This document shows, in pieces, positions 2,337-57,928 of a stretch of DNA of 64,000 nucleotides. Both the position numbers and the translations under genes were made by a program. The notes beneath the pieces are model-generated. The model had not been told where the DNA came from and ran no database searches. It was given only the letters and a program-made list of their open reading frames with translations. The DNA is taken from positions 1 to 64,000 of the forward strand of contig JAHHIK010000020.1 of NCBI GenBank assembly GCA_019358935.1, in the 5' to 3' direction. Origin of the DNA: Tolypothrix carrinoi HA7290-LM1 (GTDB taxonomy: Bacteria > Cyanobacteriota > Cyanobacteriia > Cyanobacteriales > Nostocaceae). Position 1 is the first letter of the stretch, and each line of letters begins with the position of its first letter.

Positions 2337-3164
2337 ATGACTGCAATTAATCTACCCACTGACCTCACTCCTTTCCCCGACCATACGCAGCTACCAGAGT
2401 CTAATGGCACGTTTGTAAGCCAGCCGCTTGCGGAGGTTCCCTCCGTTGTGCGGACTGGCGTGAAAAATTGGCAAGAGCATCCCCAAAGCATCTTACTGAC
2501 TGACTCGATTACACCTGTCCTCAAGCAATTAAATCCAGATGGTCAATATTGTATTGGTCAGGACTTAGGCATTTACTGGCGTTTGACCGATCCCCCTGAG
2601 AAAGGGGCAGAAGCACCGGATTGGTTCTACGTGCCGAATGTACCACCTACTTTGAATGGGCAAACGCGACGCTCTTATGTATTGTGGCGAGAGTATATTG
2701 CCCCTTTGATTGCCTTAGAATTTGTCTCTGGGGATGGTAGTGAAGAGCGAGACAAAACTCCTTGGACGGGTAAATTTTGGATTTATGAGCAGGTGATTCG
2801 TCCGGCTTTTTATGGCATTTATGAAGTCAATAAAGCTAGTGTAGAAGTCTATCACCTGATTGAAGGACAATATCAGCTATTAGCCGCAAATGAGCGGGGA
2901 CATTATCCTATAGCCCCTTTGCAAGTTGAATTAGGCATTTGGCAAGGACAATATCAAAATGTAGAATTACCTTGGCTGCGCTGGTGGGATTTGCAAGGTA
3001 ATTTGTTGTTAAGTGGTGACGAAAGAGCCGAACAAGAACGCCAAAGAGCTGAAGAAGAACGCCAAAGAGCCGAGCAAGAACGCCAAAGAGCCGATCGCTT
3101 GGCTGCCCAGTTGCGTAGACGCGTTCGCCCTTGGCGTTGCCGCAGGCTAGCGGCTTGTCGTTAG
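2337..3164 (+). CDS. Uma2 family (DUF820) putative endonuclease carrying two mini-element insertions; ancestral stop at 3194
   Basis: LPESNGTF..APDWFYVP..ALEFVSGDG, coiled-coil tail of RAEQERQ repeats; inserts at 2417-2461 and 3116-3166. Confidence 0.85.
   Translation: MTAINLPTDLTPFPDHTQLPESNGTFVSQPLAEVPSVVRTGVKNWQEHPQSILLTDSITPVLKQLNPDGQYCIGQDLGIYWRLTDPPEKGAEAPDWFYVPNVPPTLNGQTRRSYVLWREYIAPLIALEFVSGDGSEERDKTPWTGKFWIYEQVIRPAFYGIYEVNKASVEVYHLIEGQYQLLAANERGHYPIAPLQVELGIWQGQYQNVELPWLRWWDLQGNLLLSGDERAEQERQRAEEERQRAEQERQRADRLAAQLRRRVRPWRCRRLAACR
2417..2461 (-). mobile_element. 45-nt structured mini-element, in frame within the Uma2 gene
   Basis: AAGCCAGCCGCTTGCGGAGGTTCCCTCCGTTGTGCGGACTGGCGT; removal restores TTT GTG AAA AAT (FVKN). 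Confidence 0.8.
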
Positions 3165-9866: not shown

Positions 9867-9986
9867 TCAAGAGTCAGTGGGAGCGTGGTTAGTAGATAGT
9901 GGTTAGTAGATAGTGGTTAGTAGATAGTGGTTAGTGGTAGGAATTTTTTGTCAACCAACAACGCTCCAACTAACTACCCTTCGGGT

Positions 9987-10076
9987 TCGCCACTTGCTAC
10001 AACGGGGGGAACCCCACGCCAGTCGCCTCAACGGAGGGAACCTCCGCACAGCGCTGGCTCCGCAACGCAGTGGCTC
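9987..10076 (+). mobile_element. 45-nt mini-element nested in another 45-nt mini-element
   Basis: Outer copy 9987-10015 (29 nt) + 10061-10076 (16 nt); inner copy 10016-10060 (45 nt). Confidence 0.8.
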
Positions 10077-10145
10077 ACCAACAACTAACTACGAACAACT
10101 AACTACCAACAAATGACAAAAAGCTTAAGTTAGGAGGAATCCAGA

Positions 10146-24433: not shown

Positions 24434-24669
24434 TCGTAGTAAGGAATGCGCGTCCTTAAAATGCTTTCCCAGAGCGATAAATCGCTCACCCTTCTCTTCG
24501 AGACGCTGCGCGAACGGGTTCTGAAGTCGCTCATGGGGGAAACCACGGCAGATGCGTGACTGTCGGCGTTCGCCCTTGGCGTTGCCGAAGGCTAGCCGCC
24601 CAACGCACTGCCTCCCCTTGGCGGAGCGCCTCTCCCTTTGGGAGAAGACCGCGCTGGCTCACTACGAAC
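24434..24669. repeat. Multiply nested cluster of mini-elements inside a TCGTAGT..ACTACGAA repeat
   Basis: Contains 45-nt-family pieces (CTCATGGGGGAAACC..AAGACCGCGCTGGCTC; ACGGCAGATGC..CCAACGCACTGCCTC) and GTTCGCCCTTGGCGTTGCCG. Confidence 0.7.
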
Positions 24670-56136: not shown

Positions 56137-56262
56137 ATGGACATCGATATGCGTGTTGCGATCGTTTTAGCACCAATTGCCATTGCTGCTGGTTGGGCAG
56201 TATTCAACATCGGTGCTGCTGCTTTAAGACAAGTTCAAGGCTTTTTAGATAGAGAAGCTTAA
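56137..56262 (+). CDS. psbY: Photosystem II protein Y (missed by the ORF track)
   Basis: [41 protein letters not shown]. Confidence 0.92.
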
Positions 56263-56324
56263 ACTCGACGTGGTTGTTAGTGGTTAGTAGTTAGTAGTTA
56301 TTTGTTACAACTAACCCAACGGGA

Positions 56325-56459
56325 GAGCCAGTTGCTTCAAGTCGGCAGAGCCGACGGCAGATGCTTCAAGCCGGGAAACCCTTGCGGCAGTCGCTCATGG
56401 GGGGAACCCCCAAGACCGCGCTGCCTTACCAACGCACTGCCTCCCCAACGCACTGGCTC
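56325..56459 (+). mobile_element. Triple-nested 45-nt mini-elements
   Basis: Outer 56325-56353 + 56444-56459; middle 56354-56382 + 56428-56443; inner 56383-56427; each totals 45 nt. Confidence 0.8.
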
Positions 56460-56494
56460 ACCACTAACCACTAACCAATAACGACTAACTATTT

Positions 56495-57928
56495 GTGAAT
56501 ATCGACTTATTACTACAACCCTTCCAACGCTTCGGCGTTAATCTGGGATTAGACCGCATTGTCAAACTTTTGGCAAATCTTGGCAACCCCCATGAGCAAG
56601 TTCCGGTAATTCACGTTGCTGGCACGAATGGGAAAGGTTCTGTTTGCGCTTATCTTTCTTCGGTACTTACTGAGGCTGGTTATCGCACAGGACGCTACAC
56701 TTCACCACATTTGGTCGATTGGACGGAACGCATTTGTTTGAATGAACAAGCGATCGCCTCCGATACATTGTCTCAATTAGTACTCCAAGTTCAAGCGGCA
56801 ATCAGCCCAGATGAAGAATCACCAACTCAGTTTGAAGTAATTACCGCAGCCGCTTGGTTATATTTTGCACAAAGTAAAGTCGATGTGGCGGTAGTAGAAG
56901 TTGGATTGGGAGGACGTTTAGATGCGACAAACGTTTGCTCGCAGCCTTTGGTAACTATTATCACTTCCATCAGCCGCGAACATTGGCAACAATTAGGTTC
57001 TACAGTCGCTGAGATTGCCAGAGAAAAAGCTGGGATTCTGAAAGCTGGATGTCCGGCTGTTGTGGGAATATTGCCACCGGATGCAGAAAAAGTCGTGCGA
57101 TCGCGTACTCTAGAATTACAATGCCCGTATATTGCGCCTCAACCTGCCCGTCAAATATCTCCAGGATGGGCAGAGTATCAACAAGCAGGAGAGACAAGGG
57201 CGACGGGTGTGGGGGACAAGGGGGACAAGGGGAGCCAGCGCGTTGCGGAGGTCTCCTCCGTTGTAGCGACTGGCGTGGACAAGGGGGACAAGGGGGACAA
57301 GGGAGACAAGGGGGACAACTTTCTCGTTCCTAACTCTGAAAATCGAAAATCGATTAAATATCGATTGCCCTTAGAAGGACAGATACAGTTAGCTAATTCA
57401 AGTTTAGCGATCGCTGCTTTAGAAATCTTACAACAAAAAGGTTGGCAGATATCACAAGAAGCCATTATCAACGGCATCGCCAAAACTAAATGGCTAGGGA
57501 GAATGCAATCGACAACCTGGAGAAATCATAAACTATTAATTGATGGCGCTCATAACCCAGCTGCGGCTCAAGTTTTACGCGAGTATGTAGATAGTCTGGA
57601 TACTCCCAAAGTTAATTGGGTAATGGGAATGCTTTCCACCAAAGAACATGCGGAGATTTTCCAAGCTTTACTACGACCAAATGACAGTTTATACTTAACG
57701 CCAGTACCAGATCATAGTTCAGCCGATACAAGCGAATTAGCGAAACTAGCTCAGAAAATTTGCCCAGAAATAAGTTATTGTCAAACTTATCCAGATTTAT
57801 TATCAGCACTAGAAACAGCTTTTAGCGCAACCGATAATTTAGTCATTTTGTGCGGTTCATTATATCTCATCGGGCATTTTTTCGCAACCGTAAATACCCC
57901 TGACTTTAACCAGCCGCCGACACCCTAA
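56495..57928 (+). CDS. folC: Folylpolyglutamate synthase/dihydrofolate synthase with an in-frame repeat-derived insert
   Basis: HVAGTNGKGS, YTSPHL, EVGLGGRLDATN, DGAHNP, CGSLYLIG. Confidence 0.95.
   Translation: MNIDLLLQPFQRFGVNLGLDRIVKLLANLGNPHEQVPVIHVAGTNGKGSVCAYLSSVLTEAGYRTGRYTSPHLVDWTERICLNEQAIASDTLSQLVLQVQAAISPDEESPTQFEVITAAAWLYFAQSKVDVAVVEVGLGGRLDATNVCSQPLVTIITSISREHWQQLGSTVAEIAREKAGILKAGCPAVVGILPPDAEKVVRSRTLELQCPYIAPQPARQISPGWAEYQQAGETRATGVGDKGDKGSQRVAEVSSVVATGVDKGDKGDKGDKGDNFLVPNSENRKSIKYRLPLEGQIQLANSSLAIAALEILQQKGWQISQEAIINGIAKTKWLGRMQSTTWRNHKLLIDGAHNPAAAQVLREYVDSLDTPKVNWVMGMLSTKEHAEIFQALLRPNDSLYLTPVPDHSSADTSELAKLAQKICPEISYCQTYPDLLSALETAFSATDNLVILCGSLYLIGHFFATVNTPDFNQPPTP
57232..57276 (-). 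mobile_element. 45-nt mini-element inside a GGGGACAAG array within folC
   Basis: GAGCCAGCGCGTTGCGGAGGTCTCCTCCGTTGTAGCGACTGGCGT; removal restores CAAGGGGGACAAG. Confidence 0.8.

What the first reader, a model, noticed from the sequence alone, without database searches (positions are those of the whole stretch)
56325..56459. Self-targeting 45-nt mobile element: three nested copies, each host split 29+16
Seen: GAGCCAGTTGCTTCAAGTCGGCAGAGCCG [ACGGCAGATGCTTCAAGCCGGGAAACCCT [TGCGGCAGTCGCTCATGGGGGGAACCCCCAAGACCGCGCTGCCTT] ACCAACGCACTGCCTC] CCCAACGCACTGGCTC. Seven copies in the window (2417, 9987, 10016, three here, 57232) are exactly 45 nt with no target duplication. Sequence varies but pairing is kept: outer stem GCCAG/CTGGC, GGCAG/CTGCC, GCCAC/GTGGC; inner hairpin CGGAGG-GAA-CCTCCG, CGGC-AGA-GCCG. 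Known: Nostoc small dispersed repeats as I recall them are shorter (roughly 21-27 nt) and their mechanism is unresolved. Inference: a fixed-length, structure-defined, non-coding element moved in trans through an RNA or ssDNA intermediate, which may be undescribed.
Basis: partly seen in the sequence, partly recalled or inferred. Interest (0 to 1): 0.78.

Follow-up and report, generated by a model that had tools for sequence, protein, structure and literature searches.

The report
Self-nesting 45-base mobile hairpin repeat
A roughly 45-base hairpin-shaped DNA unit, present in hundreds of copies in this filamentous cyanobacterium and common in its family, has pasted itself cleanly into repeats, genes and its own copies; it resembles known tiny cyanobacterial repeats but is twice their size, and the enzyme that moves it is unknown.

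Summary
The nest is real and belongs to a mobile family: about 380 units in this genome, found in 24 of 24 same-family genomes and rarely elsewhere. Four sites have empty homologues with no target duplication. Thirteen base pairs covary as strict Watson-Crick pairs, with no G-T, in two data sets.

The 16-nt-from-the-end site is the commonest nesting point (38 of 64), not the only one. The outer unit is a 56-nt form with a 5' mini-hairpin. The whole 146-nt nest recurs identically in other flanks, so nests move as blocks.

At the main nesting site one stem pair of the insert covaries with target base +2 (22/29 vs 1/74, hand count), a lead for pairing-based targeting.

Best guess: single-stranded DNA hairpin pasted in trans by an HUH-type enzyme (0.4); no linked enzyme was found. 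It works like Nostoc SDRs but fails their recalled size range. I could not read that paper, and the unit occurs in N. punctiforme, so prior description is not excluded. The scan has noted similar elements on other DNA.

The parts
56315..56460 (+). Whole three-level composite, 146 nt, absent from relatives and repeated as a block elsewhere in the genome
   Evidence: Empty in 10 of 10 same-genus genomes; identical at G000:C88 in different flanks
56315..56324 (+). 5' leader mini-hairpin (CCC-NNC-GGG type) of the outer, 56-nt 'leader form'
   Evidence: Missing from the empty site; same leader on other units in 3 of 5 genomes searched; sister leader 10-mer 107 times vs 14 control
56325..56353 (+). 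Outer unit, 5' part (29 nt)
56354..56383 (+). Middle unit (46-nt variant), 5' part (30 nt)
   Evidence: Uninterrupted 46-mers of this type
56384..56427 (+). Inner unit, 44-nt subfamily
   Evidence: 37 bits
56428..56443 (+). Middle unit, 3' part (16 nt)
56444..56460 (+). Outer unit, 3' part (16 nt) plus the terminal A of the leader form
56274..56490 (.). Heptamer tandem-repeat spacer between psbY (56137-56262) and a FolC-like Mur-ligase gene (56495-57928); the target of the nest
   Evidence: Pfam PsbY and Mur_ligase (the name FolC is from my own knowledge); repeats present in the empty relatives
57232..57276 (-). Single 45-nt unit, in frame inside the FolC-like gene, within a 9-nt tandem repeat
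   Evidence: 67.6 bits; absent in 7 of 7 relatives aligned
2417..2461 (-). Single 45-nt unit, in frame inside a Uma2-family gene
   Evidence: four empty homologues, and one homologue with a 21-nt insert 1 nt away
9977..10077 (+). Leader-form unit (9977-10015 + 10061-10077) holding a 45-nt unit (10016-10060) at position 29, between the ccmL-type and ccmM-type genes
24489..24661 (+). Second nest: leader-form unit holding a 46-mer (24545-24614) and three SDR-sized inserts of 21, 24 and 27 nt
   Evidence: 70-nt hit; parsed by eye

Best explanation
A family of gene-less mobile hairpins, chiefly of Nostocaceae. One strand folds into a fixed shape: 5-bp terminal stem with invariant bases, one bulged base, 3-4-bp stem, an internal loop with two invariant As, and a 4-6-bp stem capped by a purine-N-A triloop. 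SHOWN: the shape is conserved by compensatory change; units are gained precisely without duplication; they insert on one strand, mostly just before C-N-C in C-rich tandem repeats, in genes and at a few fixed points in their own copies; anything nested inside is carried along. INFERRED: the substrate is single-stranded DNA, and a trans-acting HUH (Y1-tyrosine, TnpA/RAYT-like) strand-transfer enzyme recognises the terminal stem, cuts at both ends and rejoins the piece into exposed single-stranded DNA ('peel and paste'), perhaps reading target bases +2/+3 through the unit's own stem bases 3-4. The same machinery probably serves the 21-27-nt SDR-sized inserts. The enzyme is not identified.
For: No duplication at four site classes with empty homologues. 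13 pairs are 42/42 Watson-Crick in hand-picked copies; in 76 copies from named genomes, picked by a pattern that does not force pairing, 12 pairs are 76/76 and one is 75/76, with no G-T cell at any pair. Loop position 23 is a purine in 287 of 293 and position 25 is A in 289 of 293, the stable DNA-triloop type (established knowledge, recalled). The target motif is on one side and one strand only: +3 C in 345 of 380, +1 C in 293 of 380, no left-flank motif. A 45-bp double-stranded circle is physically implausible (inference). Block movement of nests. Insert position 4/42 tracks target +2 at the main nesting site: G-type inserts at 22 of 29 sites with +2=C and 1 of 74 with +2=G (hand count). A 21-nt insert lies 1 nt from a 45-nt unit's site in Uma2 homologues.
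Against: No unit lies within 1.5 kb of any of the 7 Y1 genes of this genome; its two RAYT-like genes carry other short palindromes. In five low-copy genomes the nearest Y1 gene to a unit is 2.6 kb away, and that unit is inside a tnpB gene rather than at an element end. No replichore strand bias (14+/13- and 17+/19-). Y1 enzymes read a motif 5' of the cut (recalled); here the motif is 3' on the strand with the triloop, and the register does not match on the other strand. The C-N-C rule has exceptions, including both gene insertions checked. As RNA the opposite strand folds better in 5 of 5 copies.
Confidence: 0.4

Rival explanations
1. RNA route: the unit is cut out of transcripts as a structured RNA and copied into DNA by a borrowed reverse transcriptase (group II intron type), priming at a nick where the RNA's 3' end resembles the target.
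For: 18 RT-domain matches in the genome. The target's first three bases (C-N-C) resemble the unit's last three (CTC). Several inserts carry one extra base at the 5' junction, as non-templated additions would. Better RNA folding of one strand.
Against: No G-U at any of 13 pairs. No duplication and no 5' truncation. Both orientations relative to host transcripts occur in the window. Only one unit near 15 RT loci scanned.
Confidence: 0.2
2. Recombinase route: the 55-58-nt leader form is the true mobile unit and is integrated by crossover at a 2-bp CC/GG core (IS607 serine-recombinase-like or IS110-like); the bare 45-mer is a by-product.
For: Leader forms begin with CC and are followed by CC in 10 of 11 complete examples, which fits a shared core. 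The joined ends read CTCAC in both forms (sequence shows).
Against: The commoner bare form has no core on its left (-1 is C in only 181 of 380). Circles this small cannot form as double-stranded DNA. IS607/IS110 genes were not searched.
Confidence: 0.15
3. No dedicated enzyme: copies spread by host repair, gene conversion between tandem-repeat arrays and template switching; hairpin arms correct each other, which yields the covariation and the unit-flank correlations.
For: Most copies sit in a few repeat contexts and subtypes cluster with contexts. Many compensations are C-G/G-C swaps. Inner hairpins appear freely combined with outer stems. Units hitch-hike inside tnpB, iscB and Uma2 genes.
Against: Clean insertions into unique coding sequence with no homology. 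Fixed bulge, fixed mismatches and invariant unpaired As are never corrected. Ends are precise to the base.
Confidence: 0.15

Closest known systems
Small dispersed repeats SDR1-8 of Nostoc punctiforme and relatives (Elhai et al. 2008, Genome Res 18:1484; paper not readable here; abstract recalled; citing passages read in PMC4390886, PMC5861425, PMC2884548, PMC3116915)
   Same: Same host group; structure kept by compensatory change; precise insertion; sits in heptamer repeats and in its own copies (recalled for SDR1/SDR4); mobiliser unknown. SDR-sized 21/24/27-nt inserts sit inside these units and share a target site.
   Different: 44-47 nt and 55-58 nt rather than 21-27 nt (recalled range); two-tier stem with bulge and internal loop; not confined to HIP1 as SDR5 is (passages); moves nests of up to 146 nt as blocks. 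The inner 24 nt rarely stands alone (28 of 286 hits outside called units, nearly all in variant units), so it is not simply two SDRs nested.
REP/REPIN elements with RAYT (Bertels and Rainey 2011, PMC3116915; Di Nocera et al. 2013, PMC3733652; abstracts and passages read)
   Same: Short hairpin repeats, hundreds per genome, thought to be moved as ssDNA by an HUH enzyme.
   Different: No terminal GTAG/CGTC tag, not arranged as inverted doublets, not next to a RAYT gene, often in coding sequence.
IS200/IS605 non-autonomous derivatives (PATE-like; recalled)
   Same: No target duplication; hairpin recognition; one-sided target motif.
   Different: One hairpin only; no resemblance found to ends of local IS200/605 copies; motif lies 3' of the junction; no lagging-strand bias seen.
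Cyanobacterial MITEs such as Nezha (reviewed in PMC3184786; passages read)
   Same: Gene-less, structured, empty and filled sites, fusions with reading frames.
   Different: Those are 127-435 bp; Nezha has transposase-type terminal repeats and flanking duplications; this unit has no duplication.

Membership tests
Nostoc SDR (Elhai 2008) | Length 21-27 nt (recalled) | tested here: not met
   44-47 nt core; 55-58 nt leader form
Nostoc SDR (Elhai 2008) | Dispersed, many copies, mainly Nostocaceae | tested here: met
   380 units; 24/24 same-family and 4/16 other-family genomes; 27/37 and 6/263
Nostoc SDR (Elhai 2008) | Secondary structure kept by compensatory changes | tested here: met
Nostoc SDR (Elhai 2008) | Embedded in heptamer repeats and in own copies | tested here: met
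Nostoc SDR (Elhai 2008) | Precise gain or loss at homologous sites | tested here: met
Nostoc SDR (Elhai 2008) | Sequence identity with one of SDR1-8 or a composite described there | not testable with these tools
   Paper and supplements not held; unit present in N. punctiforme PCC 73102 and T. variabilis ATCC 29413 plasmids
REP/REPIN-RAYT | Terminal GTAG or CGTC tag | tested here: not met
   Column frequencies of 293 units
REP/REPIN-RAYT | Copies flank a RAYT gene | tested here: not met
   0 of 7 Y1 loci; other palindromes there
IS200/IS605 derivative | No target duplication | tested here: met
IS200/IS605 derivative | Conserved 4-5-nt target motif 5' of the element | tested here: inconclusive
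   None on the ACG strand; G-N-G on the other strand, with exceptions
IS200/IS605 derivative | Orientation bias with replication | tested here: inconclusive
   No bias in two near-closed genomes; origin positions not known
IS200/IS605 derivative | Cleavage by a cognate TnpA | not testable with these tools
   needs biochemistry
MITE (DDE-type) | Flanking target duplication | tested here: not met
Rfam RNA family | Match to a curated model | tested here: not met
   0 in the window at gathering score; 0 at E<=1 in 6 loci

The most novel reading that the evidence does not exclude
The unit is a minimal self-guiding mobile element: bases of its own terminal stem pair with the target, so that stem variants redirect insertion. 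One still unknown single-strand transferase moves this unit, its 56-nt leader form, the 21-27-nt SDRs and any cargo nested between the ends. That would be a compact, retargetable, scarless insertion system and the long-missing mobiliser of cyanobacterial micro-repeats.
Probability: 0.15. Interest if true: 0.85.

Novelty: new variant of a known kind. Interest (0 to 1): 0.52.

Why it matters
How DNA units under 60 bases move without target duplication is an open question. This family is abundant, sharply defined and polymorphic between close relatives. It has a model, hot spots, clean empty/filled pairs and a testable unit-target covariation, so it makes a good substrate for finding the enzyme. 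It also adds 15-residue in-frame peptides to genes (FolC-like, Uma2, TnpB, IscB) and so shapes protein sequence in heterocyst-forming cyanobacteria. It is not categorically new: SDRs behave the same way and the scan has met many similar elements.

Tried and rejected
Two SDRs nested (21+24): rejected as the general reading; the inner 24-mer is almost always inside a unit; I did not search for the outer 21-mer alone. Flanking heptamer similarity as target duplication: rejected, since the repeats pre-exist in empty relatives and unique coding sites show none. Ruler-defined length: rejected. Target -1 base as determinant of insert type: an association exists by hand count (first 150 of 247 rows, 22 rows of other end types set aside: G/G 36, G/C 13, C/G 12, C/C 51, A/C 15, T/C 1; 12/21 vs 9/55), but at the main nesting site -1=G with +2=G takes C-type inserts 21 to 1, so +2 fits better. 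The +2 rule itself is partial: in 76 mixed contexts C-type units are common before +2=C. Replichore bias: none. Linked Y1 or RT gene: none. Phages: no match. Public runs: only contigs, uninformative on excision or expression. Literature: 9 searches found no description of this unit, but the key 2008 paper and the 2002 tRNA-intron paper (recalled) are outside the library; PMC4476775 (passages and section 18 read) mentions intron insertions without sequences I could compare. The script machine was lost, so later counts are by hand and no tree-corrected statistics were run. The G010 row was mis-cut and is ignored.

Full report
OBSERVATION. The window is contig C20 of a 7.96-Mb, 184-contig genome. 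Rejoined halves fold into long hairpins. Genome-wide, paired end motifs lie 45 apart 288 times, with shoulders at 44 (30), 46 (54) and 47 (12), and echoes at 90/91 (48/30) and 135/136 (11/13); no other spacing from 25 to 139 exceeds 22. Iterative removal of inner units gives 380 units, 188 distinct, nested up to four deep; a few are chance calls. No Rfam family matches.

CORRECTIONS. Lengths are 45 (293), 46 (58), 44 (27) and 47 (2). At this locus the inner unit belongs to a 44-nt subfamily and its host to a 46-nt subfamily, giving 30+16. Of 64 breakpoints in 63 hosts, 38 lie 16 nt from the 3' end; the rest are at 10 (4), 11 (4), 18 (1), 19 (6), 20 (4), 21 (5) and 25 (2). Against the empty spacer the insertion is 146 nt, 56315-56460: the outer unit carries a 10-nt 5' mini-hairpin and a 3' A. 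This leader form is a sister family of 55-58 nt: its leader occurs 107 times against 14 for the control; of 12 sampled leaders, 11 continue into a hairpin ending in TCA and one was cut off, and 10 of the 11 are followed by CC. The whole 146-nt nest recurs letter for letter on contig C88 in different flanks, with near copies on C51 and in G009. Nests therefore move as blocks, and this one need not have been assembled in place. A second nest at 24489-24661 was missed; it also holds inserts of 21, 24 and 27 nt.

MOBILITY. The psbY spacer lacks the nest in 10 of 10 same-genus genomes; three carry unrelated inserts nearby. The in-frame unit in the FolC-like gene is absent in 7 of 7 aligned (of 10); four keep the tandem repeat. 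The unit in the Uma2 gene is absent in four homologues, present at the same place in a genome of another family, and replaced 1 nt away by a 21-nt insert in one more. A unit in tnpB of G028 is absent in four homologues. Each gap is exactly the unit, with no duplication.

STRUCTURE. Pairs 3-7/39-43, 9-11/36-38, 17/31 and 19-22/26-29 are 42 of 42 Watson-Crick in hand-picked distinct copies. Five of them (9-38, 10-37, 11-36, 17-31, 19-29) were not in the filter that found the copies. The covariation score is 0.50 against 0.14 shuffled and at most 0.13 slid. In 76 copies from named genomes (76 of 80 listed loci of 122 found), chosen by a pattern that does not force pairing, 12 pairs are 76/76 and 17/31 is 75/76. 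No G-T cell occurs, though the pattern bars G-T at several columns. Positions 12/35, 16/32 and 18/30 are often conserved mismatches; base 8 is bulged; A15 and A33 are invariant in 293 of 293 45-mers; the loop is purine-N-A. Hairpin self-correction can create compensation without selection, but it would not keep the mismatches.

TARGET. Right flank +1 is C in 293 and +3 is C in 345 of 380; the left flank has no motif. Most copies sit at a fixed phase of C-rich 7-9-nt tandem repeats. At the main nesting site across 201 family genomes (105 of 109 rows listed, 2 tandem rows dropped, hand count) inserts with G4/C42 occupy 22 of 29 sites with C at +2 and 1 of 74 with G at +2; the 22 come from nine genomes and several inner variants. 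The rule is partial: in mixed contexts C4 units are common before +2=C, kin are not independent, and both gene insertions checked break C-N-C.

DISTRIBUTION. The covariance model hits 24 of 24 same-family genomes (1 to 150 of 150 candidates scored) and 4 of 16 other families of the order. A strict pattern hits 27 of 37 family genomes and 6 of 263 other genomes of the phylum. Named holders include Nostoc, Tolypothrix, Scytonema, Brasilonema, Calothrix and Nodularia, and plasmids of N. punctiforme PCC 73102 and T. variabilis ATCC 29413. In low-copy outsiders several copies lie in frame inside tnpB (3 of 3 in G028), iscB-like or Uma2 genes (gene names from my reading of the translations), a plausible vehicle for horizontal spread.

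MECHANISM. Shown: shape-defined unit, precise ends, no duplication, one-sided one-strand target preference, cargo carried. Inferred: ssDNA substrate and an HUH-type enzyme in trans (0.4). The grounds are strict Watson-Crick pairing, DNA-type triloops and the implausibility of tiny duplex circles. Against it: no unit near the genome's 7 Y1 genes, no replichore bias and a motif on the unexpected side. Rivals are an RNA/RT route (0.2), core crossover at CC/GG for the leader form (0.15) and host repair with template switching (0.15). No mobiliser was identified.

RELATION TO KNOWN FAMILIES. It works like the Nostoc SDRs and shares sites with SDR-sized inserts, but fails their recalled 21-27-nt size, so I do not file it as SDR1-8. 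I could not read the 2008 paper and saw only citing passages. Because the unit is in genomes that I recall it surveying, it may be described there in whole or part. It lacks REP tags and a RAYT neighbour, and lacks MITE duplications. Nine library searches found no description. Earlier scan notes report comparable 21-52-nt elements in other genomes; one cyanobacterial family of about 50 nt may be the leader form, which I did not test.

VERDICT. Real, mobile and well defined: a larger variant of a known but mechanistically unsolved kind. Interest 0.52.

Noticed in passing
window 24489-24661: Second nest: leader-form unit holding a 46-mer, plus three SDR-sized inserts (21 nt at 24495-24515 in the leader loop, 24 nt at 24568-24591, 27 nt at 24618-24644), all multiples of three.
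   Followed up: partly
L242, L246, L250 (G028); L240 (G033): All three units of G028 sit in frame near the 3' end of tnpB genes, probably where the guide RNA overlaps; the one unit of G033 is in an iscB-like gene.
   Followed up: partly
window 2417; L241; L270: One spot in Uma2-family genes holds a 45-nt unit in two distant genomes and a 21-nt insert in a third: a shared hot spot or a transferred allele.
   Followed up: partly
G000 C3:104563, C22:19896, C48:43316, C57:36297: Several nested inserts have one extra A at the 5' junction (one case an extra G, C56:25378); unexplained.
   Followed up: no
L083 2649-2693: A unit lies upstream of a group II intron-type RT domain on the same strand, possibly inside the intron RNA.
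   Followed up: no
L076 1355-1430; L077 1330-1378, 1943-1964: Two RAYT-like Y1 genes flanked by short palindromes of a different family.
   Followed up: partly
psbY spacer in G009 (L002), G003 (L010) and G005 (L011): Each carries a different, unrelated palindromic insert in the same short spacer.
   Followed up: no
window 57180-57340: The FolC-like gene tolerates a lineage-specific low-complexity insert of tandem repeats, absent in three relatives and variable in four.
   Followed up: partly
end types genome-wide: First and last bases covary (A...C 282, G...T 40, A...T 11), and G...T units favour particular sites, some antiparallel in their hosts; unexplained.
   Followed up: no
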